Below, in pieces: positions 39,132 through 61,204 of a stretch of DNA of 64,000 bases. The stretch is from an uncultured bacterium (lineage in GTDB: Bacteria > Abyssobacteria > SURF-5), in assembly GCA_964453435.1 (NCBI GenBank), contig CAYVQZ010000003.1, positions 24,690-88,689 on the forward strand, written 5' to 3'. Under the pieces are notes generated by a model. That model was not told where the DNA came from and searched no databases. It saw only the letters and a list, made by a program, of their open reading frames with translations. Position 1 is the stretch's first letter. Each line of letters opens with the position of its first letter. The position numbers were made by a program, and so were the translations under genes.

Positions 39132-41056
39132 ATGTCCTCGCCTTCGCCCTTCAAGAAGAGCGCACCGAGCGGGGGCAGGCTGAGATTCAGGGCATAAGGC
39201 CGTCCGTGGACTTGAACCGGCGCCGCCTCGACTCCTCCCATATTTCCGAAGCCGCTCCCTCCGTACTGCGACGAGTCGCTGTTTAACGCCTCTTTCCAGA
39301 AGCCTCCATGCGGCGCGCCTACCCGGTAATTCTGGCGCGGCACCGGTGTAAAATTCATGACAACAATCACATTATCAGCCGGTGAACGCCCCTTCCTCAG
39401 CAGACTGAGGATGGACTGCTCGGAGTCGTTGCAATCTATCCACTCGAATCCCGCAGGCTCAAAGTCCAATTCGTGGAGCGCCGGCTCGTTTTTGTAAAGG
39501 CTGTTCAAGTCTTCGACCCAGTGTTTCAGTCCCTGATGAGCGGGATAATCCAGCAGGTTCCACTGCAGTCCCTGTTCGTGATACCACTCGTCCCATTGGC
39601 CGAACTCTCCACCCATGAAAAGCAATTTCTTGCCCGGCTGAGAATACATGTATCCGTAAAGTAGTCGCAGGTTCGCAAATTTCTGCCAATCATCGCCCGG
39701 CATCTTTCTCAAGAGAGACCCTTTGCCGTGGACGATCTCATCGTGTGAGAGCGGCAGGACGAAATTTTCGTGGAACGCATACAGCAGGCGGAAAGTCAGC
39801 CGGTTGTGATGGAACTTTCGAAAAACGGGGTCTTTCGACATGTAGTCGAGCGTGTCGTGCATCCACCCCATGTCCCACTTCATGCCGAAGCCTAAACCTC
39901 CGACGTAGGTTGGTGTGGAGACCATCGGCCACGCCGTGGACTCCTCTGCGATGGTCTGGGCCTCGGGAAAGTTTTTGTAGATTTCTTCGTTGAACCGACG
40001 CAGAAACGCTATGGCCTCGAGGTTCTCGTTTCCGCCGTATTTGTTTGGAATCCATTCTCCCTGTCTGCGCGAATAGTCGAGATAAAGCATCGAGGCGACA
40101 GCATCCACGCGGAGGCCGTCGGCATGGTACACATCGAGCCAGAAGAGGGCGCTGCTCAGGAGAAAGCTCTGCACTTCGTCGCGCCCGTAATTGAACACGA
40201 GGCTGTTCCAATCGGGGTGAATGCCTTGTCGGGGGTCGCTGTGTTCATACAGGTGCGTGCCGTCGAAGTAGCCAAGGCCGTGTTCATCGCTCGGGAAATG
40301 AGAAGGCACCCAATCCAGAATCACGCCGATGCCATGCTGGTGAAGGCAATCGATCAGATACATGAAATCCTGGGGGGAGCCATAGCGGCTTGTGGGCGCG
40401 AAGTAACCGAGGCTCTGATATCCCCACGAGCCGTAAAACGGATGTTCCATGACCGGCAGCAATTCCACGTGGGTGTATCCCATGTTCTTCACATACTCCG
40501 CCAGTCTGGGAGCGAGTTCCCGGTAGGAGAGCGACCTGTTTTCCTCCTGGGGCAATCGCATCCATGACCCGACATGAACTTCGTAGGTAGCGAGCGCCGA
40601 ATCGGTCGAATTGTTTCTGCCGCGGTTCTTCATCCATTCTTCATCGCCCCAGGAATAATTCAGGTCCCAGATTATTGAGGCTGTATTGGGGGAAACCTCA
40701 TTGCAGAATGCGAAAGGGTCGGACTTATCGACTCGATAGTTGTTGAATCGTGAGACGATATGATATTTGTATTTTGTTCCGGTGGCGATTGCCGGGATAA
40801 ATCCTTCCCAGATGCCTGAAGCGCCTCGCGCTCGCAATGGATGGCTCGATTTATTCCAATCGTTGAAGTCACCTATGACGGAGACCTTTTCGGCGTTTGG
40901 CGCCCATAGGGCGAACAGGGTTCCTGTCACTTCGTTCTTTTCGCGCATAACGTGCGCGCCCAGTTTATTGTACAGGCGAAAGTGACTGCCCTCGTTGAAC
41001 AGGTATAGGTCGTCCTCCGTCAAGAGGGAAATATCGTATCGCATAAATCCTCCCAT
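39128..41056 (-). CDS. glgB: 1,4-alpha-glucan branching enzyme
   Basis: [34 protein letters not shown], and [22 protein letters not shown]. Confidence 0.95.
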
Positions 41057-41102
41057 TTTGTTTGCTCGGTTTGTGAATCCTTTCAGATACTTGTTTCGGC
41101 TA

Positions 41103-44100: not shown

Positions 44101-44456
44101 TGGTCGGAGGTGTGGTTCACGACCAGTTCGGTGATGACACGCAGGCCGCGCCTGTGGGCCTCCCGCAAAAACGCCCTGAAGTCGCGTATTGTTCCATACG
44201 ATGGATGGATCCCCCGATAGTAGGATATGTCATAGCCGTCATCCTTCAAAGGCGACGGGCAGAACGGCAGCAGCCAGATTGCGCCGACACCCAGGTCGTG
44301 AAGGTAGTCAAGTTTTTCGATCAGCCCCTTGAAATCACCTATGCCGTCGCCGTCGCTGTCCCGAAACGCTTTGACATGCAGTTCATAAATCACGCTGTCT
44401 TTGTACCACAGGGGATCGTCTTCCAATGCCGTTAATTCGGCCTTTCGGTCGGCCAT
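41103..44456 (-). CDS. treS: Trehalose synthase fused to maltokinase (TreS-Pep2/Mak)
   Basis: The N-terminal GH13 TreS has [29 protein letters not shown] and [10 protein letters not shown]. The C-terminal ~450 aa are kinase-like and carry [25 protein letters not shown]. Total length is 1117 aa. Confidence 0.9.
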
Positions 44457-44471
44457 ATCAACTCCTGAGTT

Positions 44472-47700: not shown

Positions 47701-48132
47701 TTTTCTCTCTCCTTGATATTTCTCCCGTCTTTCCGAGCGCCCTTATAATCAATACGCGTCAACACTCTTCTTCCGAGCGGTTTGCTTAAACTTATCGAAT
47801 TTCCAATTCGAACGCAAACAGGGCAAAGAAGGTAACGAAATGAATTCCCTGCGGGAAAAGGCAAGCGGGAACATCCTGCCAATTGGATTGCGGTTGCCAT
47901 CGGGGGTTGGGACCAACTACTCGACAAACTTGACACTTCCGCGCCGGGCTCGATAGAATGAACCATCGGAAGCCATCAGCCCCCGCTGATTCTATCTTAA
48001 ATAGAATTTAATTATTGAAAACAACCACTCTCCGGTTTTTTCCGGGCGCCTTGATCAGGGTAACGGGAGATAGCGATCAATCGTCAACAATACATTCTCA
48101 TAGTCGATGCCGATAAGCACTCGCAAAATCGA

Positions 48133-49425
48133 ATGAAGGCCGCATTGCGAGACGAAAACACCGCCTGTGATTGCGTTGCGGATTTCCTGTCGGCTGTGAA
48201 AATGCTTTCGAAGAAGACATACGACCTGGTTCTCACCGAGCTGAGCCTTCCGGACAGGGCCGGGCAAGAACTTGTCAAGTTGATAGCCGAGAAAAGCCCT
48301 TCCACTCAGATTCTTGTTGTCACATCTTCCGGCGATTCCCGTAAAGTCAGCGAATGCATGGAAATAGGGGCCTTCAATTATCTGCGCAAACCCTTCAAGC
48401 CCGGTCAGCTTCGGTTTCTGGCCAAGACGGCCTTCGACACGCAGCCGCCGAAAAGCGAAAACCTGTTTCTCGAGGGAAGGGAGGCCTTCAGCCAAACAGA
48501 CAACCTGGTTGGGAGAAGCCGGGCCATGCAGAAGGTATACGGACAGATACGCCTTGCGGCGAGCACCGATATTGATGTCCTCCTCACCGGGGAAAGCGGT
48601 ACGGGCAAAGAACTTGTGGCCCGCTCCATTCACCGCGAGAGCAAGCGGTGTGAGGGACCATTCATCGCGGTGAACACGGGCGCCATCGAGTCCAACCTGA
48701 TTTCCAGCGAACTGTTCGGACATGTGAGAGGCGCGTTCACCGGCGCCAGGAACACCCGGAAGGGAATGTTCGAGATGGCGCATGGCGGCACCCTGTTTCT
48801 CGATGAACTCAGCACAATGGACGAACAGACCCAGATAAGCCTTCTTCGCGTATTGGATAACAAGGTGATCACTCGCGTCGGCGGCTCCAAACCAATAAAG
48901 GTGGATGTGCGGATAATAGCCGCCTCAAATGCAATTCTGGAACAAGAGGTTGAATCCGCCCGTTTTCGGGAGGATGTGTATCATCGCCTGAACGTATTCA
49001 CGGTCCACATGCCGCCTCTGCGCAAGCGCACATCCGACATCAAGATTCTTGCCGCCGTCTTCGTCGACCAGTTTTCCCGCGAATTCAATAAGAATATCCG
49101 GGGCATTTCAGAAGAGGCGCTCGCGCTTCTGGAAAATTACGCGTGGCCCGGCAATGTGCGAGAATTGAAAAACTCGATTCAACGGGCTGTGTTGTTGGCT
49201 GAGAGCGATATGATCATTCCGTCCGTGCTGCCGGACCGGTTGCACAGGAAACGTGATGTCTCAACAGGGGTTGCGCTGAAAGTCGGGATGACATTGGAAG
49301 AGGCGGAGCGCGCTCTGATTGCGGCAACGCTTTCGCACGTGAACGGGAACAAGAAGAAGGCTTCGGAGATTTTGGGGATAAGCCGCAAGTGCATGTATAA
49401 CAAGATTAGCAAGTACGCCCTTTGA
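48133..49425 (+). CDS. Sigma-54-dependent transcriptional activator (NtrC/Fis family) with atypical receiver domain
   Basis: The AAA+ core has GESGTGKELVARSIH, GAFTGA and TLFLDE. The C-terminal Fis-type HTH has ASEILGISRKCMYNKI. The coordinate is the first canonical start, but the in-frame upstream codons (48064-48132) encode the receiver beta-1 strand ILIVDAD (see findings). Confidence 0.9.
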   Translation: MKAALRDENTACDCVADFLSAVKMLSKKTYDLVLTELSLPDRAGQELVKLIAEKSPSTQILVVTSSGDSRKVSECMEIGAFNYLRKPFKPGQLRFLAKTAFDTQPPKSENLFLEGREAFSQTDNLVGRSRAMQKVYGQIRLAASTDIDVLLTGESGTGKELVARSIHRESKRCEGPFIAVNTGAIESNLISSELFGHVRGAFTGARNTRKGMFEMAHGGTLFLDELSTMDEQTQISLLRVLDNKVITRVGGSKPIKVDVRIIAASNAILEQEVESARFREDVYHRLNVFTVHMPPLRKRTSDIKILAAVFVDQFSREFNKNIRGISEEALALLENYAWPGNVRELKNSIQRAVLLAESDMIIPSVLPDRLHRKRDVSTGVALKVGMTLEEAERALIAATLSHVNGNKKKASEILGISRKCMYNKISKYAL

Positions 49426-49704
49426 TTGTATATTTATTACACAGAACTCTCGAACATCGCGCCGCCGGTTGTTTTTTCCGTTATATCAGCGATTTTTGAC
49501 AGGCCAAAAAATCGGGGATGTGAAGAATGTGCTCATTTTTTTCGGATATATCGATTATGAGTATTATTTATACATACTACCCCATAATTTTCCCGCATTA
49601 ACGCCGTTCCAACTCTCCTTCCGCAGGATTTTCAACTTTTTCAAAATTAGAACCTCTTTCTTTTCACAGGGTTAGCAGAGGGGCTTCTTAAGAGACCCGC
49701 TCTT

Positions 49705-49720
49705 TGGCGCCATCCGTGCA
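49705..49720 (+). promoter_or_regulatory. Candidate sigma-54 (-24/-12) promoter
   Basis: TGGCGC-CATCC-GTGCA matches consensus TGGCAC-N5-TTGCW with correct GG/GC spacing. It lies ~98 nt upstream of the ATG at 49818 and directly downstream of the sigma-54 activator gene. Confidence 0.65.
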
Positions 49721-49817: not shown

Positions 49818-50180
49818 ATGCCAAAGAAAATAATTCTTTTGCTCAAATCAGGAATAAAATTTGAAAACATGCTCAAGGATTACTTGAGCCAGGAGGGTTT
49901 TGAAGTTGATACCGCGGAAACCGTGGCCGAAGTCCTTTATTATCTCAAGAGGTCGCCTCATTTTCTCCTGGTCGTTGAGCAGGACACATACGAGATGGAC
50001 TGTCTGGAACTTTTTCTAAATGCTCGAGATATTCAATCGAACATCAAAGTTGTTTTCCTCGGTTCGGGTGATCCAAAAAGCAAAGACGAGATAATGAAGC
50101 TCGGAGGAATCTACCTCGATTCCCCCGTTCGGGCGGAAGTCTTCCGGGAAATCATAAACGACGTTCGTAAGGTCAAGTGA
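49818..50180 (+). CDS. Single-domain receiver-like protein with degenerate phospho-acceptor pocket
   Basis: 120 aa with CheY-like periodicity. KIILLLKSG replaces the DD pocket. FLLVVEQDTYEMDCLELFL aligns Glu with the phospho-acceptor Asp. The conserved Lys position reads LDSPV. Confidence 0.65.
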   Translation: MPKKIILLLKSGIKFENMLKDYLSQEGFEVDTAETVAEVLYYLKRSPHFLLVVEQDTYEMDCLELFLNARDIQSNIKVVFLGSGDPKSKDEIMKLGGIYLDSPVRAEVFREIINDVRKVK

Positions 50181-50280: not shown

Positions 50281-50967
50281 ATGACAGAAAACGGGCTAAT
50301 CAAGGAACTCCACGCAAACGTGGTCCTCGGCCGGATAGACCGGAATGAAGATTTGTATGAGGAATTAGCCGGACGCCCCGGCGTAACCGAGTTGACCGCC
50401 CAGTGTGTGGAAAAAGGCGTGCCCACGAAACGGATTCTGGACGAGGGCCTGATCAGCGCGATGGATGAAGTCGGCGCGAAGTATGAATCGGGAGAATATT
50501 ACCTGCCGGACTTGATCGCATCGGCCGACGCCATGATAGCCGGCATGGAGATTCTCAAGCCTCTGTTACTGGAGGCTCAAATCCAATCGCGCGGCAAAGT
50601 CATCCTGGCCACCGTGGAAGGCGATGAACATGATATTGGGAAAAATCTTGTGGGCATTATGCTTCGAGCCGCCGGTTTCGAAGTAATCGATTTGGGAACG
50701 CGAGTTCCGGCGGGAGACATTGTGGAAGCGGTGGAAGAACATAAACCGAACGTGCTCGGATTGAGCGCGCTTTTGACATCCACCATGCCGCGCATGAAAG
50801 AGGTCATCGAAGCGTTGGAACGAAACAATCTCCGGAACGGCATGCGGGTGATGGTGGGCGGAGCTCCCGTTTCAAAGGAGTACGCGGATTCCATCGGAGC
50901 AGATGCATATGGAGAGGATGCGTTTGAGGCAGTAGAGCGGGCCAATGAATTGGTGGTTGTATCATGA
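50281..50967 (+). CDS. Corrinoid (B12)-binding protein, methyltransferase-cognate type
   Basis: An N-terminal helical cap is followed by a Rossmann B12 domain with the DxHxxG motif (GDEHDIGKNLV), SxL (LGLSALLTS) and GG (MVGGAPV). Confidence 0.9.
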   Translation: MTENGLIKELHANVVLGRIDRNEDLYEELAGRPGVTELTAQCVEKGVPTKRILDEGLISAMDEVGAKYESGEYYLPDLIASADAMIAGMEILKPLLLEAQIQSRGKVILATVEGDEHDIGKNLVGIMLRAAGFEVIDLGTRVPAGDIVEAVEEHKPNVLGLSALLTSTMPRMKEVIEALERNNLRNGMRVMVGGAPVSKEYADSIGADAYGEDAFEAVERANELVVVS

Positions 50968-51599
50968 TACGAACAGATGCCGACAGTTCAGGACTTGTGG
51001 TTATCGATTCGTTTGACATTCGGACCACGCCGAAATCGGTGCTCAAGAGGATGGGCAGGGGGGTCAGCGAGACCAAATGGGCAGGCGCCGTTTCAAGAGT
51101 ATTTGAACAATATTGGCCGCGAATTCAACCGCGCGGCGTGTTTCGCGTTACCATCTGCCATCCTGACGGAGATTCAATCGGCATCGGCAAAAACCTGGGC
51201 TTCAGAAGCGGATTTTTGCAGGAACGCCTCCCCTATCCGCGACTTTCGGCGATTTTTCTGGTAACCATCGGGGCTGAGTTGGAAGAAGGAATACGCGAGG
51301 AGATGCGAAAGGGCAGGAATCGCAGAGCATACATCTTGGACTGTCTCGGCTCCAACGCGGCCGAAGCGACCGCCGCGGCCATTCATCGAGCGGTCGAGGA
51401 ACAGCTTGACGTTCCAATGAGCCGATACAGCCCCGGCTATAACGATTGGGACATTGCCGAGCAACGAATTCTCTTTGATTTTCTTGGGCGGGACACGGCG
51501 AAGGAAGTGGGAGTTCGCTTGACGCACGATTTCATGATGACGCCGCAGAAGTCAGTCAGCGGCATTATCCTGCCCAGAATGGAACAAAACCCGAATTGA
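50964..51599 (+). CDS. MetH-type (vitamin B12-dependent methionine synthase) activation-domain-like protein, stand-alone
   Basis: The C-terminal block RYSPGYNDWDIAEQRILFDFLG...GVRLTHDFMMTPQKSVSGIILP matches the reactivation-domain signature as I recall it. The start overlaps the upstream stop (ATGA). Confidence 0.7.
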   Translation: MIRTDADSSGLVVIDSFDIRTTPKSVLKRMGRGVSETKWAGAVSRVFEQYWPRIQPRGVFRVTICHPDGDSIGIGKNLGFRSGFLQERLPYPRLSAIFLVTIGAELEEGIREEMRKGRNRRAYILDCLGSNAAEATAAAIHRAVEEQLDVPMSRYSPGYNDWDIAEQRILFDFLGRDTAKEVGVRLTHDFMMTPQKSVSGIILPRMEQNPN

Positions 51600-51687
51600 T
51601 TCCTATCATTCAATCCGCGTTTTCACGCTCACAGAAAACCTCGCGCAGGACGTAAGAAAAGTTGAAAGAAATGAGAGGACAGGAACT

Positions 51688-53184
51688 TTGGAACGAGCGA
51701 TTTCGAGACAGAGGTTTTTGGTAGCTGCGAGAAAAGGAATTGCAGGAGGAGCCTACAAGCCTCTGAGCGATTCCGACCTCGATAAGGTCTGCGACACCAG
51801 TTTCAGGCTCTTGGAGGAGGTCGGCGCTCTGGTGCACGAGCCCACGGCGCTCGACCTTTTCGAAAAGGCCGGGGCCAGGGTGGACCGCGCGTCCGCTGTC
51901 GTCAAGATTCCGCGCCAACTGGTGAAATCTTCCCTCAAAAGTTTACCCTCGAAGGTGACACTGTTCGGGCGAGATGAATCACACGACCTTCACCTCGAGG
52001 ATGCGCGCGTGTATGTGGGAACCGGCGGGACCGCGCTCAACGTTCTCGATTTCGGAGCCCATGAAGTTCGGCCGGCGCAACTGAGCGACCTCCGGTCCAT
52101 CTGCAAATTGGTTGACGCGCTCGACCACGTCCATTTCATCGTGATTCCCACCTATCCCAACGAGTTGGACGTCGCTTGCGTTGACGTCAATCGTTTTTTC
52201 ACGGCGTTGAGTCAAAGCTCCAAACACGTAATGGGCGGTATTTATACGCTTGAGGGTCTGCGCCAGGTCATACGCCTCGCGGAAATAATAGCCGGCGGTC
52301 CGGACGCGTTGCGAGAAAGACCGTTCATATCGGTGATCACATGTGTTATGAGTCCGCTGCGGCTTGACAGCCATTACGCGCATTTGATGATCGAGACAGC
52401 CAAGGCGGGAATACCCGTCTGTGTGCCCGCCGAGCCGCTGGCGGGCGCAACCTCGCCGATTACTCTGGCCGGCACTCTGGCGATGCAAGTTGCCGACAGC
52501 TTGGTCGGCGTCGTGTTGACACAGATAGTCAATCCGGGCACCCCGGTGATTTTCGGGTCGGTTGCCACAACGACCGACCTGCGGGACATGAAATACCTTG
52601 GGGCCTCCATCGAGAGCGGACTCTTAAACGCGGCGGGAGCCCAGGTGGCCCAGCATCTTCGGATTCCCTATTATGCGACCGCCGGAATGAGCGACGCGAA
52701 GACCATTGACGCTCAGTGCGGATACGAGGCCGCTCTCACGTTGCTGCTCACTGCGCTCTCGGGAGCCAACTACATCCACGACGCGGCCGGACTCATGGAG
52801 TTTGCGAACACGGTGAGCCTCGAGAAATACGTTATCGACGACGACATCATCGGCATGGTGATGCGGGCCGTCGAGGGGATTCGAGTGAACAAAGACACGC
52901 TGGCCTTCGACGCCATTCGAAGGGTTGGACCCGGCGGCAATTTCCTCGCGGAGCGGCACACGGCGAAACACATGAGGAAAGAGCACTACATGCCGACAGT
53001 CGCCGATCGCTCCCGGCGCGACCAGTGGCTCGCCGCAGGCACGAAAGACGCATACGCGCGAGCACACGAGAGGGCGATGCTGTTGCTCGAGTCCCACACG
53101 CCCGCGGCTCTGTCGAACGATGCCCTCTCGCGAATACGGGCAGAGTTTTCGGAAGTCCTTGCGGACGGCAACGAGGAGAGCTGA
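51688..53184 (+). CDS. MttB-family (trimethylamine methyltransferase superfamily) corrinoid methyltransferase, non-pyrrolysine, paralogue 1
   Basis: TTG start, 498 aa. The N-terminal block is LSDSDLDKVCDTSFRLLEEVGALVHEPTALDLFEKAGARVD. It also has GTGGTALNVLD and the C-terminal GPGGNFLAERHT. There is no in-frame stop. Confidence 0.85.
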   Translation: MERAISRQRFLVAARKGIAGGAYKPLSDSDLDKVCDTSFRLLEEVGALVHEPTALDLFEKAGARVDRASAVVKIPRQLVKSSLKSLPSKVTLFGRDESHDLHLEDARVYVGTGGTALNVLDFGAHEVRPAQLSDLRSICKLVDALDHVHFIVIPTYPNELDVACVDVNRFFTALSQSSKHVMGGIYTLEGLRQVIRLAEIIAGGPDALRERPFISVITCVMSPLRLDSHYAHLMIETAKAGIPVCVPAEPLAGATSPITLAGTLAMQVADSLVGVVLTQIVNPGTPVIFGSVATTTDLRDMKYLGASIESGLLNAAGAQVAQHLRIPYYATAGMSDAKTIDAQCGYEAALTLLLTALSGANYIHDAAGLMEFANTVSLEKYVIDDDIIGMVMRAVEGIRVNKDTLAFDAIRRVGPGGNFLAERHTAKHMRKEHYMPTVADRSRRDQWLAAGTKDAYARAHERAMLLLESHTPAALSNDALSRIRAEFSEVLADGNEES

Positions 53185-53994
53185 GTGATTGTTATAGGAG
53201 AGAAAATCAACGCCACGCGAAAATCCGTGAAGCACGCGTTGAAAGAGAAGAATCTGGATTTCATACGACAGCTCTGCGGCGAACAGGATTCGGCCGGAGC
53301 GGACTATATCGATGTGAACGTCGGCGCCGGCGAAGACGACGTCGACTTCGAGACAAGAACAATGGTGTGGCTTGTGAAGGCGCTCGAAGAGGTAACAGAA
53401 AAACCTCTTTGCATCGACAGCGCAAATCCGGCCGTGATCGAGGCTGGCGTGAAGGCCTGCACGCGGGCAAAGCCCATGATTAATTCAGTGAACGGAACAG
53501 ATTCGAGAATGGACGCCATCTTCCCGCTTGCCTCCGAGTGCGGATGCCCCGTCATTGCGCTCGCCATGAACGAGGAGGGAATACCGGCCACACCCGAAGA
53601 ACGCGTCTCCATTTGCAGGCAAATTCTGGAACGCGCCAGTTCGTATGAGATTCCGAACGAAAACCTCTTATTCGACCCGCTCGTGCTGCCACTGTCCACG
53701 GGAGAACAACAAGGAACGATAACTCTCGACACGATTTCCCTTCTGAAAAGCTCACTGGACGGAGTGCGAACCGTGGTGGGCCTGAGCAACATATCGTTCG
53801 GGCTGCCTCACCGCTCGCTCATCAACGGAGCGTTCCTCGTATTGGCGATCGGGCGTGGGGCCGACGCGGCGATTTTCGACCCCACGAACGCGAAACTGCT
53901 CTCGCAACTGCGGGCCGCAGAGGTGGTAGCGGGCAGTGACCGCAGATGCCGGCGCTACACCCGCGCTCACAACACCGGCCAATTGACTGATTAA
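53185..53994 (+). CDS. Pterin-binding methyltransferase (methylcorrinoid:tetrahydrofolate methyltransferase, MtgA/AcsE/MetH pterin-domain-like)
   Basis: The GTG start immediately follows the upstream TGA. Motifs are IGEKINATRKSV, DYIDVNVG, CIDSANP, INSVNG and GLSNISFGLP. Confidence 0.85.
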   Translation: MIVIGEKINATRKSVKHALKEKNLDFIRQLCGEQDSAGADYIDVNVGAGEDDVDFETRTMVWLVKALEEVTEKPLCIDSANPAVIEAGVKACTRAKPMINSVNGTDSRMDAIFPLASECGCPVIALAMNEEGIPATPEERVSICRQILERASSYEIPNENLLFDPLVLPLSTGEQQGTITLDTISLLKSSLDGVRTVVGLSNISFGLPHRSLINGAFLVLAIGRGADAAIFDPTNAKLLSQLRAAEVVAGSDRRCRRYTRAHNTGQLTD

Positions 53995-54002
53995 GGAGAA
54001 CC

Positions 54003-55535
54003 ATGAGAGGTGTTATGTCCCGAAAAATGAAGACAGAGACGATTCAAAGGCAGGGAGTTCTCGTTGACCCGTACAGACGATTGACGAGTCGACAAATCAG
54101 GGCCATACATGAGGCTTCCCTCGATATCCTTTGGGAAGTCGGAATAACGTGCAACAACCCGAGGATTATCGAGTTGTTGGCCGCGAACGGAGCGGCGATT
54201 GACAGAAAGAACGGCGAAACGGTGGCGAAGCTTCCCGCAAAGCTCGTCGCGCAAGCCGTGGAAAGTTCTCCCCGCGCCGTCGTGCTCGGCGCGCGCAACC
54301 CCGATAATCGTTTGATTCTTGATGCGCGGGAACCACGAGTGAGATTTGGCACAGGCTCGGAGACGAATATATGGCTGAGCCTGGAATGGGAGAACAACAC
54401 TATCCCCGGCTTCCGCGAGCATCGGGGAACTCTCGAGCGACTCTGCAAGTCCGCCCGTTTGTGCGACCACTTGGAGTCGGTCGATTTTTTCATCCGGAAC
54501 GTGAACATTCAAGACGAGAACATAGACGATGATAACAAGGATGTCAACGTCTTCTTTGGCAGCCTCAGCAATATAACCAAGCATGTAATGGCAGGTATTA
54601 ATAATGTGGAAAAACTGGCGGACGTGGTTCGAATGGCCGAACTCATAACAGGCGGCGCCGATGCTTTTCGGGCCAACCCGATTATTTCTTTCATCACCTG
54701 CGTCATCAAGAGTCCGTTGCAGTTGGTCGATGACACGGCGGACAAGTTGGTGGCGATAGCCGAGCGGGGCATACCGCTTGTTATCTCTTCGTCTCCCCAG
54801 GGCGGCGCAACGGGGCCGATTGACGAGGGGGACATGGTCGCGATGATTAACGCCGAAATCCTTGCCGGCGTCCTCCTTGCCCAGCTTGTCCGGCCGGCGG
54901 CGCCGGTGCTGTATGGCGCTGTGCCCGCGCGAGCGCGAATGGACACCCTGCACAACATGTATGGAGCGCCCGAGACGAACCAGTACAACATTGACTGCGT
55001 TCAGATGGCGCGATTCTACGATATTCCGTGCTATTCGACCGCCGGGGTGAGCGACGCCGCGATACCGGGCATTCAAACGACGATGGAGAAGATGTTGTCC
55101 CATCTGAGCGTAACGATGAGCGGACCCCAGTACCTGCACTATGCCTTCGGCCTGCTCGACAAAACCAACATCTTCTGTCCGGCGCAGGCAGTGCTCGACG
55201 ACGCGCACATCGCAGCGGTCAAGCATTTCTGCCGCAAGCCGGAAATAACCAAAACAAGCCTGAACAAAGGCGTCGCTCAGCTCAAACAGGTGATGGATTC
55301 CTCTCACAAACTTTTCGCGAGATACGCCCGGAAGGGAATGCGGTCAGGCGCTATCTCCCGACCCTACCCGTTCGAAGCCGCCGCGCTCGAGGACACGACA
55401 CTGTTCCAGGCCGATTCCGTCGCGCGCGAACTGATGGAAAAGACCGTGGAACCGATTCCCGACGATGTCGTGGAGAGAATCTTCGCGGCGCTCCCGGGAA
55501 TCGTGTCCCAACTGAAGCCGGCGCTGAGAGAATGA
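54003..55535 (+). CDS. MttB-family corrinoid methyltransferase, non-pyrrolysine, paralogue 2
   Basis: AAGGAG RBS, 510 aa. It is collinear with paralogue 1 (IRAIHEASLDILWEVGITCNNPRIIELLAANGAAID; STAGVSDA) but only ~30% identical by eye. Confidence 0.85.
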   Translation: MRGVMSRKMKTETIQRQGVLVDPYRRLTSRQIRAIHEASLDILWEVGITCNNPRIIELLAANGAAIDRKNGETVAKLPAKLVAQAVESSPRAVVLGARNPDNRLILDAREPRVRFGTGSETNIWLSLEWENNTIPGFREHRGTLERLCKSARLCDHLESVDFFIRNVNIQDENIDDDNKDVNVFFGSLSNITKHVMAGINNVEKLADVVRMAELITGGADAFRANPIISFITCVIKSPLQLVDDTADKLVAIAERGIPLVISSSPQGGATGPIDEGDMVAMINAEILAGVLLAQLVRPAAPVLYGAVPARARMDTLHNMYGAPETNQYNIDCVQMARFYDIPCYSTAGVSDAAIPGIQTTMEKMLSHLSVTMSGPQYLHYAFGLLDKTNIFCPAQAVLDDAHIAAVKHFCRKPEITKTSLNKGVAQLKQVMDSSHKLFARYARKGMRSGAISRPYPFEAAALEDTTLFQADSVARELMEKTVEPIPDDVVERIFAALPGIVSQLKPALRE

Positions 55536-56803
55536 GTGGTGATTCCATGGATTCCGGTTCCGCATACACCGAAGCCGTCAACACGGGTCAGTACCAGAAA
55601 GACCAGGGCCTGGTTAAAAAGTACGACAACGTCCGCATCTACTGGGAAGATGAAATAACGCGACATTTTGTTCGCCCGCACATCGAGCGGATGACGATGG
55701 AAAAAGAGCAGCGCCTCGAGCGGTTGCGGATTCTCGATTTGGGATGCGGCAGCGGTGACGGGTTCGAGTTGCTCAAAGGCGTTCGCCGGAAAGACAACAA
55801 TCTCACGACACAGGAGATCTACGCCATCAACGGCGAAGACCTCGGCCTCTATCTCGGGTTGGACAACAATGCGGCCCTTATTGAACAGGCAAAACAGGTC
55901 CACGGGAGTAATCGCAAGCTCGACTTCGTTCAGGGCGACTTCTCAGAACTCACGAAAACCGTGAAGGATTACGGACCCTTCGACCTTTTCTTCAGCTCGT
56001 ACGGAACGATGTCTCATTGCACTGATGAACAGTTTGTCGAGCTAATGGTACAGATCGCCGAACTGTGCGGAGACTATGGGCTGGTCGTGTGCGATTGGCT
56101 CGGGCGCTACGTGTACGCGTGGCAGAACCTGTGGGACAGCGACCTTTCGCAAAGCCAATTCATGGATTACCGTATTTCCTATATCTACCCGGATGACATG
56201 AGGGACAAACTGCAAATAGAGAGTTTCCCGCTCAAGCTCATGAGCCCCGATGAGGTCCACCGGCTTATCGAGAAGGCAAACGAGAAAGCGGAAAAGCAAT
56301 TCGACCTGCTCAGGCTTGCGGACCGCTCCATCTTTGTCAGTCGCCATATGGACACCGGCGACTATAACAGTAGCTGCCAGCCGATACGGCGCCGCGTTAA
56401 TTCGCTGCATGAAGACTTTCTCCGCACGCCGCTCGAACAATTGATTATCGACTATTATCCAAAGCCCGGATTCGCCGAGGTCAACTCCTACCTCGAACGG
56501 CTTCAAATAAGCTGGAACACGCTGGTGAAATACACGATGTTTCTTTTGGACAATTACGACCGCGACACCGAGACGTTTCGAGAGGACAAACCCCTTTCCG
56601 GCGATTACCCCCGGGTGCTCGCGAAAAATATGCAGGAAATGAAAAAGGTAATCCAGGGCACCGGATGGATACAGACCGGCGACGTGAGGGCGAACATCAT
56701 CGAGCCGCAGCTTGGCTATGCTCTCAGGCAGCTCGAGATCGAGTTGCAGGAAGGACTGGGTGTGGGCCATGGCCTGGTTGCGATACTGGAAGTCCACAAG
56801 TAA
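55532..56803 (+). CDS. Large class I SAM-dependent methyltransferase-like protein (423 aa), function unknown
   Basis: The ATG at 55532 overlaps the MttB-2 stop (ATGA). Motif I is LRILDLGCGSGDGFELL, post-I is LGLDNN, motif II is DFVQGDF, and motif III is FDLFFSSYGTMSHC. The ~200 aa C-terminal region is not recognised. The track ORF start at 55028 lies inside MttB-2 and is rejected. Confidence 0.75.
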   Translation: MSGDSMDSGSAYTEAVNTGQYQKDQGLVKKYDNVRIYWEDEITRHFVRPHIERMTMEKEQRLERLRILDLGCGSGDGFELLKGVRRKDNNLTTQEIYAINGEDLGLYLGLDNNAALIEQAKQVHGSNRKLDFVQGDFSELTKTVKDYGPFDLFFSSYGTMSHCTDEQFVELMVQIAELCGDYGLVVCDWLGRYVYAWQNLWDSDLSQSQFMDYRISYIYPDDMRDKLQIESFPLKLMSPDEVHRLIEKANEKAEKQFDLLRLADRSIFVSRHMDTGDYNSSCQPIRRRVNSLHEDFLRTPLEQLIIDYYPKPGFAEVNSYLERLQISWNTLVKYTMFLLDNYDRDTETFREDKPLSGDYPRVLAKNMQEMKKVIQGTGWIQTGDVRANIIEPQLGYALRQLEIELQEGLGVGHGLVAILEVHK

Positions 56804-56818
56804 CCCCTTTTTCCATTC

Positions 56819-57985
56819 ATGATAGAACTGAAAGACGTTTCAAAGGTCTATCCTGACAATCAGCCCGCCGTAAAGAACTTCTCTCTCACCGTGGCAGACG
56901 GAGAGACCGTCGTTCTCATCGGCTCGAGCGGATGCGGGAAGACAACGACACTGAAAATGATCAACAGGCTCATCGAGCCCACCTCCGGCGAGATATATAT
57001 CAACGCAGAAAACATACTCAAGCTGAGCCCCGTTGCCCTGCGTCGCGACATCGGTTACGTCATCCAGCAGATCGGACTGTTCCCGCACATGACAATCAGA
57101 GAAAACGTCGAAATCGTGCCATCCCTTCTGGGCTGGCCGGAAGACCGCCGCCGCAGCCGCTCCCACGAGTTGATGAGCCTTGTGGGCCTGGCGCCCGACG
57201 TGTACTCCGACCGCTTCCCCCATGAGTTAAGTGGCGGACAGCAGCAACGGGTGGGGGTCGCCAGGGCGCTTGCGGCCGACCCGCCGACTCTCCTGATGGA
57301 CGAGCCGTTCGGCGCGCTGGACCCGATCACCCGGCGCGACATCCAGGAGGAATTTCAAACTCTGAAACGGGAAATCAAAAAGACAATCGTCTTTGTCACT
57401 CACGACATTATTGAAGCGGTGACTCTCGGAGACCGAATCGCGGTCATGAATAAGGGGAAATTGATTCAGTTGGGGTCCGCACACGAAATACTGTCTCATC
57501 CCGCCAATCCGATGGTCGAAAAAATCATCGGCCACCAGCGGTTTCAGCTCACCTTGAGCTCGGAGAACATCGAGACAGCGGCGGACACCGACATCGCGAC
57601 GGTCTCGGCAAAATTCCTTGAAAAACCGGTGGAAGACGCGCGTAATCTTATGAGAAAACGCCGGACCGGGATATTGCCCGTAGTTGACGAACAAGAACGG
57701 GTAGTCGGTGTGTTGACGGATGAACGCTTGTCGCGCGCGAATGAGAACGAAACCCTCAACGAGGTGATTCAGCCGCCTCCGCACACAATCGATAGCGACA
57801 CCAGCCTCCTTACGGCGCTCAATCTGATGATTGAAAAAGACGTGCAGATGTCCGTGCTGGTAAACAGGGATGGAAAGTTCGGGGGAATTCTGTCACGAAA
57901 GAGCCTGCTCGGAACAATCGCAAACTTATTCGATGCCGAGGGCTCGGACAGCGCCAAAACGAAGAGAGTTACGGGGAAACCATGA
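56819..57985 (+). CDS. Osmoprotectant (betaine/choline/carnitine-type) ABC transporter ATP-binding protein with C-terminal tandem CBS domains
   Basis: Walker A is GSSGCGKTT, signature is LSGGQQQRV, and Walker B is LLMDEPFGALD. The ~130 aa C-terminal CBS-like region has ILPVVDEQERVVGVLTDE and VLVNRDGKFGGILSR. Confidence 0.9.
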   Translation: MIELKDVSKVYPDNQPAVKNFSLTVADGETVVLIGSSGCGKTTTLKMINRLIEPTSGEIYINAENILKLSPVALRRDIGYVIQQIGLFPHMTIRENVEIVPSLLGWPEDRRRSRSHELMSLVGLAPDVYSDRFPHELSGGQQQRVGVARALAADPPTLLMDEPFGALDPITRRDIQEEFQTLKREIKKTIVFVTHDIIEAVTLGDRIAVMNKGKLIQLGSAHEILSHPANPMVEKIIGHQRFQLTLSSENIETAADTDIATVSAKFLEKPVEDARNLMRKRRTGILPVVDEQERVVGVLTDERLSRANENETLNEVIQPPPHTIDSDTSLLTALNLMIEKDVQMSVLVNRDGKFGGILSRKSLLGTIANLFDAEGSDSAKTKRVTGKP

Positions 57986-59523
57986 CCGAGTATTTCGAGT
58001 TTTTTCTATCCCGTTCGCCGGAAATCGCCTGGCTCACGGTCGAGCACATACGGATAACCCTGGTCTCGGTGGCGCTGGCGGTGCTGCTCGGCGTGCCGAC
58101 CGGAATCATCCTCGTGAGAATCCGGCGGCTGGCCACGCCTGTCATTGGGGCGACGAGCGTAATCCAGACGATTCCGAGCCTCGCCCTTCTCGGTTTCATG
58201 ATTCCCTTGCTCGGAATCGGCGTCAAACCGGCCATCGTGGCGCTGTTTCTTTACGCTCTGCTGCCAATAGTCAGAAACACATATACGGGGGTCGACCAGG
58301 TGGACCCGGCGCTGATAGAGGCCGGCATCGGGATGGGAATGACGAACCGTCAAATGCTGCGGAGGGTGCAAATTCCGCTTTCATTGCCCGTGATAATGGC
58401 GGGAGTCAGAACCTCGACAGTCATCAATGTGGGCGTAGCCACGCTGTGCGCGCTCATCGGCGCCGGCGGGCTTGGCGAGCTTATCTTCCGCGGAATCGCG
58501 ATGGTGAACAGCCAGATGATTATTGCGGGAGCCCTGCCGGCCGCCCTCTTGGCGCTCGTTTTCGACGGAGTACTCGGACTCATCGAGAAAGGGCTCATGG
58601 CGAGGAAACGCTTTTCGCCGAAGCTCCTGGCGGGTGTCGGTTTCTCGAGCTTGCTCTTCCTCGCGGCTCTTATCCCGTCCGAGTACGCGAAAAAAGATGC
58701 GCGGAAAATCACAATCGGGTCCAAGGAATTCACCGAACAAATTATCCTGGGTGAGATCATGGCCCAGTTGATTGAATCAAACACCGACGTGTCCGTGACC
58801 AGAAAGTTCGGACTGGGCGGCACTATGGTCTGTTTCAACGCCTTGACAAATGGCGACATCGACGTGTATCCCGAATACACCGGCACCGGCTTGACGGCGA
58901 TCCTGGCCCGGCAGGCAATCTCGGACCCGAAAGAGGTGTTTCGTATCGTAAGCGAGGAGTTCGAGCGCGAATACAACCTGGTCTGGCTGAGTCCGTTCGG
59001 TTTTAACAACACGTATGCGCTCGCCATGAGAGAACAACACGCCGAAAAGCTCGGAATCGAGAAAATAAGCGATTTGGCCGGGCATGGGCAAAGACTGCGG
59101 CCGGGCTTCACCCAGGAATTCCTCGAACGGCCCGACGGGTATCCGGGCCTCAGGCGGCATTACGGTCTGGCCTTCGCCCGCGAACCCAAGGGAATGGACC
59201 CCGGAATCATGTATATCGCGCTCAGGGAAAGAGATGTCGATCTTATTTGTGCATTCGCCACGGACGGGCGCATTCCGGCTTTCAACTTGCGGGTTCTCGA
59301 GGATGACAAGCACTATTTTCCTCCGTATTATGCAGCCCCCCTCGTGCGCGGGGAGACGCTTGCTCGCATCCCCGAACTGAGCGGCGTTTTGGGCAAGCTG
59401 GCCGGCCTCATCGACGACGCAAAGATGGCCGAACTGAATTATGAGGTGGACGAGCAGGGACGGTCGCCCGAGGCGGTCGCTTCCGCCTTTCTCCAAGAGG
59501 CGGGGTTGACCACAAACGGATGA
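57982..59523 (+). CDS. Osmoprotectant ABC transporter, fused permease and substrate-binding protein (OpuB/C/F-type)
   Basis: The N-terminal ~210 aa permease has IQTIPSLALLGFMIPLLGIG and EAGIGMGMT. The C-terminal OpuAC-like binding domain has ITIGSKEFTEQIILGEI and DIDVYPEYTGTGL. The start overlaps the ATPase stop (ATGA). Confidence 0.9.
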   Translation: MTEYFEFFLSRSPEIAWLTVEHIRITLVSVALAVLLGVPTGIILVRIRRLATPVIGATSVIQTIPSLALLGFMIPLLGIGVKPAIVALFLYALLPIVRNTYTGVDQVDPALIEAGIGMGMTNRQMLRRVQIPLSLPVIMAGVRTSTVINVGVATLCALIGAGGLGELIFRGIAMVNSQMIIAGALPAALLALVFDGVLGLIEKGLMARKRFSPKLLAGVGFSSLLFLAALIPSEYAKKDARKITIGSKEFTEQIILGEIMAQLIESNTDVSVTRKFGLGGTMVCFNALTNGDIDVYPEYTGTGLTAILARQAISDPKEVFRIVSEEFEREYNLVWLSPFGFNNTYALAMREQHAEKLGIEKISDLAGHGQRLRPGFTQEFLERPDGYPGLRRHYGLAFAREPKGMDPGIMYIALRERDVDLICAFATDGRIPAFNLRVLEDDKHYFPPYYAAPLVRGETLARIPELSGVLGKLAGLIDDAKMAELNYEVDEQGRSPEAVASAFLQEAGLTTNG

Positions 59524-61051: not shown

Positions 61052-61204
61052 CATGTGGCCGGTGGGCGCAGCATGAGTGGCAACGAGAGTGTTCAAATCG
61101 TCGCGACAAGAATTCATCATAATCACGAATCATAAATACGGCAGGCCGCGCCGACAGTTGACGGAGGGGCCCGCAGTTCGCCGATTGGAAAGGAGCATCG
61201 AACA

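What the first reader, a model, noticed from the sequence alone, without database searches (positions are those of the whole stretch)
48064..48330. Sigma-54 activator whose receiver domain has Glu at the phospho-acceptor position and no canonical start codon upstream of its beta-1 strand
Seen in sequence: the first ATG, GTG or TTG of the ORF is at 48133. The same frame is open back to a TAA at 48061 and encodes (R)EIAINRQQYILIVDADKHSQNR, which is the receiver beta-1 strand and acidic pocket. No ATG, GTG or TTG occurs in that stretch. An SD-like GGGAGA (48065-48070) is followed by ATC at 48076. Aligned by hand to NtrC, DLVLTELSLPDRAG matches DVLLSDIRMPGMDG, which puts Glu where the phosphorylated Asp54 sits. 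The conserved Thr (LVVTSS) and Lys (LRKPF) are retained. No histidine kinase gene is in the window. Established knowledge: NtrC D54E is a classic partially constitutive, phosphorylation-independent substitution, and ATC/ATT/ATA are rare bacterial starts. Inference: this is either a phosphorylation-independent activator initiated at a non-canonical codon, or an N-terminally eroded receiver. Either way its control logic is atypical.
Basis: partly seen in the sequence, partly recalled or inferred. Interest (0 to 1): 0.55.

Follow-up and report, generated by a model that had tools for sequence, protein, structure and literature searches.

The report
Kinase-independent sigma-54 activator missing its start
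This is a sigma-54 transcription activator whose phosphorylation site has been replaced by glutamate in all eleven members found of a small gene family, so it probably works without a kinase; this one genome has also lost the normal start codon.

Summary
The activator frame is open from TAA 48061 to TGA 49425. No ATG, GTG or TTG occurs before 48133, yet the receiver's first strand and acidic pocket lie upstream, at 48088-48114. Glu59 (48238-48240) sits where the phosphorylated Asp belongs.

All 11 clade members examined carry Glu there, against Asp in 75 of 76 more distant NtrC-type relatives. The neighbouring acidic-pocket residue is never acidic in the clade. Thr, Tyr and Lys are retained. 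No histidine kinase is encoded in the window or beside any orthologue. This is a conserved pseudo-receiver, a known class.

New here:
- The activator gene is always followed by a conserved sigma-54 promoter and TGTGTA-N5-TACACA dyads.
- The first downstream gene encodes a stand-alone 117-121 aa pseudo-receiver that also has Glu at the acceptor position.
- In the window and three other loci, a glycine-betaine-type corrinoid methyltransferase operon comes next. The window and one of them also show the OpuA transporter genes.

The missing start codon is private to this genome; five orthologues read at DNA level start at ATG or GTG 12-19 codons before beta-1. Three outcomes cannot be separated:
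- weak initiation at ATC 48076, six bases after GGGAG;
- a truncated product from ATG 48133 or TTG 48145;
- a recent pseudogene.

The parts
47930..47959 (+). Sigma-70-like promoter TTGACA-18-TAGAAT (11 of 12 matches). It would give a leader of about 100 nt ahead of the activator frame.
   Evidence: a consensus scan only
48051..48116 (+). Short frame from TTG 48051 to TAA 48114-16 (21 codons), offset by one base from the activator frame. It may be the remnant of the ancestral start if a 1-nt frameshift occurred in the leader.
   Evidence: MAFFT places the orthologue ATGs on this TTG, with 4 surplus nt in the window. Peptide similarity is not significant, p = 0.04-0.15.
48065..48078 (+). Shine-Dalgarno-like GGGAG (48065-69), a 6-nt spacer, then the near-cognate codon ATC (48076-78). 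ATA at 48070-72 lies inside this stretch.
   Evidence: SD-like 4-mers occur at -16 to -8 in 20 of 37 genes of the window, against 13% of random positions.
48064..49425 (+). Open frame of the NtrC-family sigma-54 activator: 453 codons plus stop. First canonical starts are ATG 48133 and TTG 48145.
   Evidence: The database protein P0001 (426 aa) starts at TTG 48145.
48088..48438 (+). Pseudo-receiver domain (residues 9-125). Key residues: D15 (48106), A16 (48109), D17 (48112), Glu59 at the acceptor position (48238-40), T87 (48322-24), Y106 and K109 (48388-90).
   Evidence: Pfam Response_reg E = 4.7e-22; AlphaFold2 secondary structure; gap-free alignment to NtrC1; residue census.
48505..49260 (+). 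AAA+ sigma-54 interaction domain with Walker A GESGTGKE, the GAFTGA loop and Walker B DE, followed by the AAA lid.
   Evidence: Pfam Sigma54_activat E = 3e-66 and AAA_lid_14 E = 2.3e-25. The catalytic columns are invariant across 83 sequences, including the window.
49291..49416 (+). Fis-type HTH_8 DNA-binding domain.
   Evidence: E = 5.9e-12
49427..49443 (.). Putative upstream activator site 1: dyad TGTATA-tttat-TACACA, immediately after the activator's stop codon.
   Evidence: Dyads of the form TGTGTA-N5-TACACA recur at matching positions in the six orthologous intergenic regions.
49558..49574 (.). Putative upstream activator site 2: dyad TGAGTA-ttatt-TATACA.
   Evidence: plus direct reading
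49705..49720 (+). Sigma-54 promoter TGGCGCCATCCGTGCA with GG-N10-GC spacing.
   Evidence: Conserved as TTGGCAyCA-N4-TGCA in all six loci aligned.
49818..50180 (+). Stand-alone pseudo-receiver of 120 aa. It has Glu54 at the acceptor position, no acidic pocket (K-x-G), S-P in place of K-P, and the invariant motif VEQDTYEMDCLELxLN.
   Evidence: AlphaFold2 pLDDT 85.5, (beta-alpha)5 fold, beta-3 at residues 50-54. Foldseek TM 0.84-0.87 to Spo0F and other receivers. Alignment to Spo0F.
50281..59523 (+). Downstream operon: MtgC-like corrinoid protein, MetH-activation-like protein, an MttB-family methyltransferase closest to glycine betaine MtgB, a methyl-THF:corrinoid methyltransferase, a second MttB paralogue, a SAM-methyltransferase-like protein, a ProV-type ATPase and a fused OpuA permease/binding protein.
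   Evidence: The same gene order occurs in L016, L017 and a JGI contig. No terminator-like site on the + strand was found between 49400 and 51700.

Best explanation
The gene encodes an orphan NtrC-family sigma-54 activator from a small clade. The one named member is from Candidatus Hydrogenedentota. In this clade the N-terminal receiver has become a pseudo-receiver. Glu replaces the phosphorylated Asp, and the metal-binding acidic pair is degenerate. Thr, Tyr and Lys, which would stabilise an active-like conformation around a long acidic side chain, are kept.

Inferred mechanism:
- The protein does not depend on a histidine kinase.
- It binds the TGTGTA-N5-TACACA dyads just downstream of its own gene.
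- It uses its intact AAA+ domain (GAFTGA loop) to open the conserved sigma-54 promoter at 49705.
- That promoter drives a stand-alone pseudo-receiver, also with Glu at the acceptor position. In this genome it also drives a glycine-betaine-type corrinoid methyltransferase and OpuA transporter operon.
- The activator has no other sensory domain. Control most likely comes from the small pseudo-receiver feeding back on the activator by protein-protein contact, as PspA does on PspF, or from a ligand bound at one of the two ex-phosphorylation pockets.

What is shown: domain anatomy, residue conservation, synteny, and conservation of the promoter and dyads. What is inferred: kinase independence, the feedback loop and any ligand.

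In this genome alone the ancestral start codon has been lost. The protein is then made at a low level from ATC 48076 (or ATA 48070) behind GGGAG, or made as a form lacking beta-1 and alpha-1 from ATG 48133 or TTG 48145, or not made at all.

The confidence of 0.7 applies to the identity claim: a conserved Asp-less pseudo-receiver activator of the conserved sigma-54 promoter. The feedback or ligand step is much less certain, and the start-codon outcome is unresolved (see the rival explanations).
For: Acceptor and pocket residues.
- The acceptor column is Glu in 7 of 7 full-length clade members of the 83-sequence alignment. It is Asp in 75 of the 76 others.
- Four further clade sequences also carry Glu: P0007, P0139, L016 and L018.
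- The column equivalent to NtrC Asp11 is A, N, T, N, G, N, S in the clade and Asp or Glu in 75 of 76 others. The next column is D, D, D, A, N, D, S. Thr87, Tyr/Phe106 and Lys109 are kept.
- Alignment to the NtrC1 receiver is gap-free, and AlphaFold2 puts Glu59 at the end of beta-3.

No kinase. None is encoded in the window or within the flanks held for L003, L011, L013 and L016, which reach up to 8 kb on each side and less where a contig ends.

The activator looks intact. All AAA+ catalytic columns are invariant and include the window.

The target is conserved. The sigma-54 promoter and two or three dyads are conserved in six loci. The small-protein gene follows the activator in every locus that extends far enough.

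The small protein is a receiver fold with Glu54 at the end of beta-3.

Operon identity rests.

Literature. Glu is the commonest replacement in aspartate-less receivers and can act as a phosphomimetic (PMC4395418, PMC12632262).
Against: No experiment supports kinase independence.
- A Glu substitution alone often fails to activate receivers, for example CheY, PhoB and Spo0A (PMC4395418).
- A distant orphan kinase or another modification of Glu cannot be excluded.

The feedback role of the small pseudo-receiver rests only on gene order and on analogy with PspA/PspF.
- In L003 the pair occurs without the methyltransferase operon next to it, so the link to betaine metabolism is not universal.

The clade is represented by only about 11 sequences, mostly on short metagenomic contigs.

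In this genome the missing start may mean that the gene is no longer expressed.
Confidence: 0.7

Rival explanations
1. A full-length activator is made by initiation at a near-cognate codon. The best candidate is ATC 48076, six bases after GGGAG; ATA 48070 is the alternative. This would give a low, possibly tuned, level of an intact pseudo-receiver activator.
For: - The frame is open and encodes an intact beta-1 and alpha-1, whose similarity to orthologues is normal for that segment.
- GGGAG lies at an optimal distance, in a genome where 20 of 37 genes have an SD-like 4-mer at -16 to -8, against 13% of random positions.
- AUA, AUC, AUU and CUG initiate at about 0.1-3% of AUG in E. coli, and infC and pcnB use AUU (bioRxiv 10.1101/063800).
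- The downstream promoter, the dyads and all AAA+ motifs are intact.
Against: - No orthologue uses a non-canonical start. Five loci have ATG or GTG 12-19 codons before beta-1.
- An SD-like 4-mer at a suitable distance is expected by chance about 13% of the time per site, and there are 2-3 candidate codons.
- Initiation efficiency in this phylum is unknown.
Confidence: 0.35
2. The product is N-terminally truncated. It starts at ATG 48133 or TTG 48145, possibly by re-initiation after the short frame TTG 48051-TAA 48116. Its receiver lacks the central strand beta-1 and most or all of alpha-1, so it cannot fold. The AAA+ and HTH part then acts unregulated or is inactive.
For: - These are the only canonical starts, and the database gene call begins at TTG 48145.
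- GAAGG lies 5 nt before TTG 48145.
- TAA 48114-16 ends 16 nt before ATG 48133.
- MAFFT places the orthologue ATGs on TTG 48051, with a 4-nt surplus in the window, as a 1-nt frameshift would give.
- The predicted linker at residues 126-152 is not helical, so the AAA+ part is a separate module.
Against: - ATG 48133 has no SD-like sequence.
- The 23 upstream codons show no decay.
- The frameshift reading is not statistically supported. Peptide similarity gives p = 0.04-0.15, and a start codon in another frame is expected there by chance.
- Removing beta-1 would leave about 100 residues of unfoldable receiver attached to the activator.
Confidence: 0.3
3. The gene is a recently inactivated pseudogene in this population. 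The start was lost by a point change or a 1-nt indel in the leader, and the operon is now silent or driven otherwise.
For: - There is no canonical start before an essential structural element, and two in-frame stops lie just upstream.
- The anomaly is private to this genome.
- L018 shows that clade genes can be disrupted.
Against: - The 453-codon frame is intact and every catalytic column is conserved.
- The promoter and dyads are intact.
- The same sequence was recovered from two other sequencing runs.
- If this is a pseudogene, it is very young.
Confidence: 0.25
4. It is a conventional phosphorylated response regulator that uses another Asp, such as the clade-invariant D54 or D64, or it is a sequencing artefact.
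For: D54 and D64 are invariant in the clade. Orphan regulators can have distant kinases.
Against: - D54 (start of beta-3) and D64 (the LPD loop) are equally conserved in canonical receivers such as NtrC1, where they are not phosphorylated.
- The model puts Glu59, and no Asp, at the end of beta-3.
- The acidic pair needed for Mg-dependent phosphotransfer is degenerate.
- Eleven independent sequences share Glu, and three assemblies agree on the window sequence.
Confidence: 0.05

Closest known systems
NtrC (GlnG) and its D54E substitution; NtrC-family activators such as Aquifex NtrC1, AtoC and ZraR
   Same: The architecture is the same: REC, AAA+ with a GAFTGA loop, and HTH_8. NtrC1 is the best solved-structure match, aligning without gaps over 127 residues. 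Glu at the acceptor position is the residue that partly activates NtrC without phosphorylation (Klose et al. 1993, as cited in PMC4395418).
   Different: Here the Glu is natural and conserved, the acidic pocket is degenerate, and no kinase partner is present. The protein scores below the cut-off of every NCBIfam equivalog, for example ntrC 398 against 558.6. The REC-AAA+ linker contains Pro-Pro and is predicted non-helical, unlike the NtrC1 and DctD coiled coil.
FleQ / FlrA: sigma-54 activators with an aspartate-less receiver-like domain
   Same: Both are NtrC-type AAA+ activators whose N-terminal receiver fold is not phosphorylated. Their activity is set by partner proteins or ligands (FleN and c-di-GMP; PMC12632262).
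   Different: The window protein matches Pfam Response_reg and the Pfam FleQ family was not among its matches. It keeps Thr, Tyr and Lys and has Glu at the acceptor position. No FleN-like gene is adjacent. The target is a methyltransferase operon, not flagellar genes.
Aspartate-less or pseudo-receiver domains in general (ChxR, RitR, plant PRRs, fungal Rim15)
   Same: They have the receiver fold but lack the acceptor Asp. Glu is the commonest replacement (26% of such domains), the second acidic residue is often lost, and Lys is often kept (PMC4395418, PMC12632262).
   Different: Most characterised bacterial cases are OmpR- or NarL-type. Here two such domains, one on an AAA+ activator and one stand-alone, are genetically coupled through a sigma-54 promoter.
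PspF-PspA (also HrpS-HrpV)
   Same: In both, a sigma-54 activator without a kinase input has a target operon whose first gene encodes a small protein that could feed back on the activator. This comparison rests on established knowledge, not on a test made here.
   Different: PspF has no receiver domain, and PspA is a coiled-coil ESCRT-III-like protein rather than a receiver fold. Any interaction in the present case is untested.
Genes with AUU, AUC or AUA starts (infC, pcnB)
   Same: A near-cognate codon preceded by an SD-like sequence is the only way to make the full-length protein. Such codons give low expression (bioRxiv 10.1101/063800).
   Different: In infC the AUU is conserved and autoregulatory. 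Here orthologues use ATG or GTG, so the feature is not conserved.

Membership tests
NtrC-family bacterial enhancer-binding protein (sigma-54 activator) | AAA+ sigma-54 interaction domain with Walker A, Walker B and the GAFTGA loop | tested here: met
   Pfam PF00158 E = 3e-66. GESGTGKE, GAFTGA and DE lie in invariant columns.
NtrC-family bacterial enhancer-binding protein (sigma-54 activator) | C-terminal Fis-type HTH, plus a target with a -24/-12 promoter and upstream dyads | tested here: met
   HTH_8 E = 5.9e-12. TGGC-N8-TGCA is conserved in six loci, with 2-3 TGTGTA-N5-TACACA dyads. Binding and activation were not tested.
NtrC-family bacterial enhancer-binding protein (sigma-54 activator) | Membership of a named equivalog (NtrC, AtoC, ZraR, LuxO and others) | tested here: not met
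   All NCBIfam equivalog scores fall below their curated cut-offs.
Canonical two-component response regulator | Phospho-acceptor Asp at the end of beta-3 | tested here: not met
   Glu59 in the window and in all clade members.
Canonical two-component response regulator | Acidic pair after beta-1 for Mg binding | tested here: not met
   The window has D-A-D. The clade column is never acidic at the first functional position and is variable at the second.
Canonical two-component response regulator | Conserved Thr/Ser, Tyr/Phe and Lys | tested here: met
   T87, Y106 and K109 are present.
Canonical two-component response regulator | Cognate histidine kinase | tested here: not met
   No HisKA or HATPase_c domain in the window ORFs or in the flanks held for four orthologous loci. 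A distant kinase cannot be excluded.
Pseudo-receiver / aspartate-less receiver domain | Recognisable receiver fold that lacks the acceptor Asp, conserved among orthologues | tested here: met
   Pfam Response_reg E = 4.7e-22; a (beta-alpha)5 model with pLDDT above 90 over the domain; Glu in 11 of 11 clade members.
Pseudo-receiver / aspartate-less receiver domain | Activity independent of phosphorylation | not testable with these tools
   This needs biochemistry.
FleQ-type activators | N-terminal FleQ domain (PF06490) and a FleN partner | tested here: not met
   PF06490 was not among the Pfam matches; Response_reg matched instead. No FleN-like gene is adjacent.
Genes with a functional non-AUG/GUG/UUG start | The non-canonical codon is conserved in orthologues | tested here: not met
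   Orthologues start at ATG or GTG.
Genes with a functional non-AUG/GUG/UUG start | Mapped N-terminus at the non-canonical codon | not testable with these tools
   This needs proteomics, ribosome profiling or a reporter assay.

The most novel reading that the evidence does not exclude
The activator and the small protein form a phosphorylation-free 'two-pseudo-receiver' switch. A Glu-locked activator is held in check or licensed by a stand-alone Glu-type pseudo-receiver, which is encoded as the first gene of its own target operon. The invariant acidic and aromatic ex-active site of the small protein (VEQDTYEMDC plus GxYLDSP) would sense the substrate, a quaternary amine, or the corrinoid or redox state. 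This would be a previously undescribed way of wiring receiver folds to sigma-54 transcription.
Probability: 0.2. Interest if true: 0.7.

Novelty: new variant of a known kind. Interest (0 to 1): 0.42.

Why it matters
How bacterial pseudo-receivers are switched on and off is an acknowledged open question (PMC12632262). Almost nothing is known about them on AAA+ activators other than FleQ.

This clade offers a compact and testable case:
- an activator with no sensory domain other than a Glu-type pseudo-receiver;
- a defined sigma-54 promoter with clear binding dyads;
- a dedicated stand-alone pseudo-receiver partner;
- a recognisable metabolic output, glycine-betaine-type demethylation and uptake, in an uncultured phylum.

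It would also be a first handle on how MttB-family quaternary-amine operons are regulated. A full-text search for MttB, sigma-54 and glycine betaine together found no paper.

The start-codon loss matters mainly for annotation. The database protein begins inside the receiver domain and hides both beta-1 and the domain's true nature.

Tried and rejected
Searches that gave little or nothing.
- A genome-contig scan with the window's receiver sequence returned only 26-32% identical, unrelated receivers. The peptide patterns chosen were too specific to the window.
- A metagenome-contig scan with the clade alignment added one 5'-truncated clade member, L018.
- A protein search with the receiver alone returned nothing, which looks like a word-index limitation. 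No sister strain with an intact or different start was found.
- The exhaustive representative search showed only two other 50%-identity clusters close to this receiver. It gave no further N-termini.
- Cluster look-ups gave no names or taxonomy for the window.

Ideas tested and not supported.
- Frameshift in the leader. MAFFT aligns the orthologue ATGs to TTG 48051, but the similarity of the frame-shifted peptide to orthologue leaders is not significant, p = 0.04-0.15 against all start-codon-initiated peptides of the window. It is kept only as a possibility.
- Programmed +1 frameshifting. Rejected because no slippery site follows GGGAG (reading).
- Stop-codon recoding. Rejected because TAA is not known to be reassigned in bacteria (own knowledge), and because the MttB-family ORFs in the window are read at full length under table 11.
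- RNA element in the 5' leader or in the intergenic region. No Rfam match was found, and the leader fold has a z-score of -0.03.
- Recent duplication as the origin of the small protein. Rejected because the profile-profile alignment shows only 20% identity.
Full report

Yes. The activator frame has in-frame stops at TGA 48052-54 and TAA 48061-63. It is then open to TGA 49423-25. The first ATG, GTG or TTG in frame is ATG 48133, followed by TTG 48145. The 23 codons before ATG 48133 read REIAINRQQYILIVDADKHSQNR.

The receiver starts upstream of that ATG. Pfam Response_reg aligns from its first profile position at the I of ILIVD, residue 11 counted from 48064. An AlphaFold2 model built on 83 homologues has mean pLDDT 89.9, with receiver blocks at 89-96. 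It places beta-1 at residues 9-14 and alpha-1 at 18-28. Met24 (48133) is therefore inside alpha-1 and Leu28 (48145) is at its end. Translation from either would remove the central strand of the receiver fold.

GGGAG lies at 48065-69 and ATC at 48076, six bases later. ATA 48070 is also in frame. The stretch 47960-48200 is identical in two Logan assemblies made from other sequencing runs. The anomaly is therefore not a random assembly error. The public database protein for this gene, P0001 (426 aa), begins at TTG 48145.

**2. Is Glu really at the acceptor site, and is it conserved?**

HMMER aligns residues 11-137 to the Aquifex NtrC1 receiver (1ZY2, 1NY5) without a single gap. TYDLVLTELSLPD falls on HFNVVLLDLLLPD. 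In the model Glu59 (48238-40) is the last residue of beta-3, which spans residues 55-59.

The closest homologues are 60-73% identical and 455-461 aa long. One is annotated as Candidatus Hydrogenedentota (CP070779). All of them read ...LVLTEL.LPD or a close variant, whereas homologues at about 45% identity have Asp.

A census on the 83-sequence alignment gives these counts:

| Column (window residue) | Clade, 7 sequences | Other 76 sequences |
|---|---|---|
| Acceptor (E59) | Glu in 7 | Asp in 75, Ser in 1 |
| NtrC Asp11 equivalent (A16) | A, N, T, N, G, N, S | Asp or Glu in 75 |
| Next acidic position (D17) | D, D, D, A, N, D, S | Asp or Glu in 75 |
| T87, Y106, K109 | kept (one Ala at 87, one Phe at 106) | kept in nearly all |

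Four further clade sequences also have Glu: P0007, P0139, the L016 gene and the partial L018. That makes 11 of 11.

The receiver family is small. Among 1.84 billion representative proteins, only two other clusters match it closely, at E = 1.8e-46 and 1.6e-38.

The invariant D54 and D64 are the ordinary start-of-beta-3 and LPD residues, which NtrC1 also has. They are not alternative acceptors. This is a conserved pseudo-receiver.

**3. Is a kinase present?**

Pfam scans of all sizeable ORFs in the window found no HisKA or HATPase_c domain. None of the called genes in the flanks held for the orthologous loci L003, L011, L013 and L016 has one either. Those flanks reach up to 8 kb on each side and are shorter where a contig ends.

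**4. What does the activator control?**

The AAA+ domain is intact. Walker A GESGTGKE, GAFTGA, Walker B DE and the conserved arginine columns are invariant across the 83 sequences, window included. HTH_8 is also present.

The 355-457 bp between the activator gene and the next gene were aligned in six loci: the window, L003, L011, L013, L016 and L017. All six contain a sigma-54 promoter of the form TTGGCAyCA-N4-TGCA. In the window it is TGGCGCCATCCGTGCA at 49705-49720, with GG-N10-GC spacing. They also contain two or three dyads of the form TGTGTA-N5-TACACA. In the window these are TGTATA-tttat-TACACA at 49427-43 and TGAGTA-ttatt-TATACA at 49558-74. This is the classical layout of an enhancer-binding protein with its upstream activator sites.

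**5. The small protein behind the promoter.**

The first gene behind the promoter always encodes a 117-121 aa protein. In the window it is 49818-50180, which is 67% identical to the L003 copy. The word-seeded search found only 18 relatives.

It is a receiver fold:
- AlphaFold2 gives pLDDT 85.5 and a (beta-alpha)5 topology.
- Foldseek gives TM-scores of 0.84-0.87 to Spo0F, CheY-like proteins and NtrC1.

It is also a pseudo-receiver:
- Glu54 is at the end of beta-3 (residues 50-54) and aligns to Asp54 of Spo0F.
- K-x-G replaces the acidic pair, and S-P replaces K-P.
- The motif VEQDTYEMDCLELxLN is invariant.

A profile-profile alignment puts its Glu54 on Glu59 of the activator at only 20% identity, so it is not a recent duplicate.

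**6. The operon downstream.**

In the window, L016, L017 and a JGI contig, the small gene is followed by:
- an MtgC-like corrinoid protein;
- a MetH-activation-like protein;
- an MttB-family methyltransferase, whose best solved relative is the Desulfitobacterium glycine betaine methyltransferase (2QNE, 9YCE; E = 3e-81).

L017 ends after the activation-like gene. In the window, L016 and the JGI contig the order continues with a methyl-THF:corrinoid methyltransferase and a second MttB paralogue (cut at the contig end in L016). The window and the JGI contig then show a ProV-type ATPase and an OpuA permease/binding protein. No terminator-like site on the + strand was found between 49400 and 51700. 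In L003 the activator and small-protein pair occurs without that operon beside it. The pair is therefore the conserved core.

**7. Most likely mechanism.**

Shown: the anatomy, the residue conservation, the synteny, and the conservation of the promoter and dyads.

Inferred: the activator works without phosphorylation. Glu together with the retained Thr and Lys could mimic the phosphorylated state. This is the standard hypothesis for Glu-type pseudo-receivers, and it is what NtrC D54E does (PMC4395418, PMC12632262). However, Glu alone is insufficient in several receivers (PMC4395418).

The predicted linker at residues 126-152 (TQPPKSENLFL...) is non-helical and of low confidence. It differs from the coiled-coil linker of NtrC1 and DctD. 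Whether the receiver acts positively, as in NtrC, or negatively, as in NtrC1, cannot be read from the sequence.

The activator has no other sensory domain, so the signal must enter elsewhere. The most economical idea is feedback by the small pseudo-receiver encoded as the first gene of the target operon, analogous to PspA acting on PspF. Ligand binding at one of the two ex-phosphorylation pockets is an alternative or additional route. This step is inference only.

**8. The start codon.**

Orthologues start at ATG (L003, L011, L014; L017 from its gene call) or GTG (L013), 12-19 codons before beta-1. The missing start is therefore private to this genome. Three outcomes remain.

(a) Near-cognate initiation. 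ATC 48076 lies six bases after GGGAG. The genome uses SD sites: 20 of 37 genes have an SD-like 4-mer at -16 to -8, against 13% of random positions. A strong sigma-70-like promoter, TTGACA-18-TAGAAT at 47930-59, would give a leadered mRNA. AUA, AUC and AUU initiate at roughly 0.1-3% of AUG in E. coli (bioRxiv 10.1101/063800). The SD match could still be chance.

(b) A truncated product from ATG 48133, which has no SD, or from TTG 48145, which has GAAGG five bases upstream. It might arise by re-initiation after a 21-codon frame running from TTG 48051 to TAA 48114-16. MAFFT aligns the orthologue ATGs on that TTG with 4 surplus bases in the window, as a 1-nt frameshift in the leader would produce. 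The peptide similarity is not significant, p = 0.04-0.15, and a start codon in another frame is expected there by chance.

(c) A very recent pseudogene. The intact 453-codon frame, the catalytic motifs, the promoter and the dyads argue that any inactivation is young.

I cannot separate these three. My rough weights are 0.35, 0.30 and 0.25.

No Rfam family matches the leader or the intergenic region, and the leader has no unusual fold.

**9. Comparison with known systems.**

By architecture the protein is an NtrC-family enhancer-binding protein. It falls below the cut-off of every named NCBIfam equivalog.

Its receiver fails the defining features of a canonical response regulator: the acceptor Asp, the acidic pair and a partner kinase. 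It meets those of the pseudo-receiver, or aspartate-less receiver, class. In that class Glu is the commonest replacement (26%; PMC4395418).

The best-known sigma-54 activator with such a domain is FleQ. The window protein does not match the FleQ domain family and has no FleN partner.

A full-text search for MttB, sigma-54 and glycine betaine together found no paper.

**10. Verdict.**

The atypical-receiver interpretation is supported and extended: it is a conserved clade feature with a second pseudo-receiver as partner. The non-canonical start remains an open, single-genome question.

The kind of element is known. The new variant is the genetic coupling of two Glu-type pseudo-receivers through a sigma-54 promoter in front of a betaine-type methyltransferase operon. 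Interest is moderate.

Noticed in passing
window 49818-50180; also L003 9742-10095, L011 9767-10120, L016 6229-6594, L017 1770-2123: This stand-alone pseudo-receiver family has Glu at the acceptor position, no acidic pair, Ser-Pro in place of Lys-Pro, and the invariant stretch VEQDTYEMDCLELxLN with a conserved Cys. Only 18 relatives were found by the word-seeded search. The acidic and aromatic ex-active site might bind a cationic ligand or a partner; this was not tested.
   Followed up: partly
window 50281-59523: A quaternary-amine (glycine-betaine-type) demethylation and uptake operon. It encodes an MtgC-like corrinoid protein, a MetH-activation-like protein, two non-pyrrolysine MttB paralogues (the first closest to D. 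hafniense MtgB), a methyl-THF:corrinoid methyltransferase, a SAM-methyltransferase-like protein, and a ProV/OpuA transporter. The gene order is conserved in L016, L017 and a JGI contig.
   Followed up: partly
window 47990-48006: A perfect palindrome, TTCTAT-CTTAA-ATAGAA, lies between the predicted sigma-70 promoter (47930-47959, whose -10 box also contains ATAGAA) and the activator frame. It could be an operator or a small RNA hairpin.
   Followed up: no
window 48051-48116: A 21-codon frame, TTG...TAA, overlaps the receiver's beta-1 region in another frame. It is either the remnant of the ancestral start after a 1-nt frameshift or a chance ORF.
   Followed up: partly
window 3803-6058 (-), 9452-16625 (+): Four paralogous proteins of about 750-800 aa carry a C-terminal sulfatase / type I phosphodiesterase domain. 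Three are in tandem, among glycosyltransferase genes.
   Followed up: no
window 30470-46529 (-): A large alpha-glucan cluster: GH77 4-alpha-glucanotransferase, alpha-amylase-family proteins, GH57/DUF3536, a branching-enzyme-like protein, a TreS-maltokinase fusion (1117 aa) and GlgE maltosyltransferase.
   Followed up: no
window 59555-62686 (+): Two tandem asparagine synthase (glutamine-hydrolysing) paralogues lie directly after the OpuA genes.
   Followed up: no
L018 1-1691: A partial clade member, also with Glu at the acceptor position, has its reading frame broken after 246 codons. This is either a disrupted copy or a low-quality contig.
   Followed up: no
L003 1-8 and 8001-9371: The Hydrogenedentota genome CP070779 encodes a second sigma-54 activator, of GAF type, about 8 kb upstream of the Glu-type activator. 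Sigma-54 regulation is therefore used more widely in that genome.
   Followed up: no
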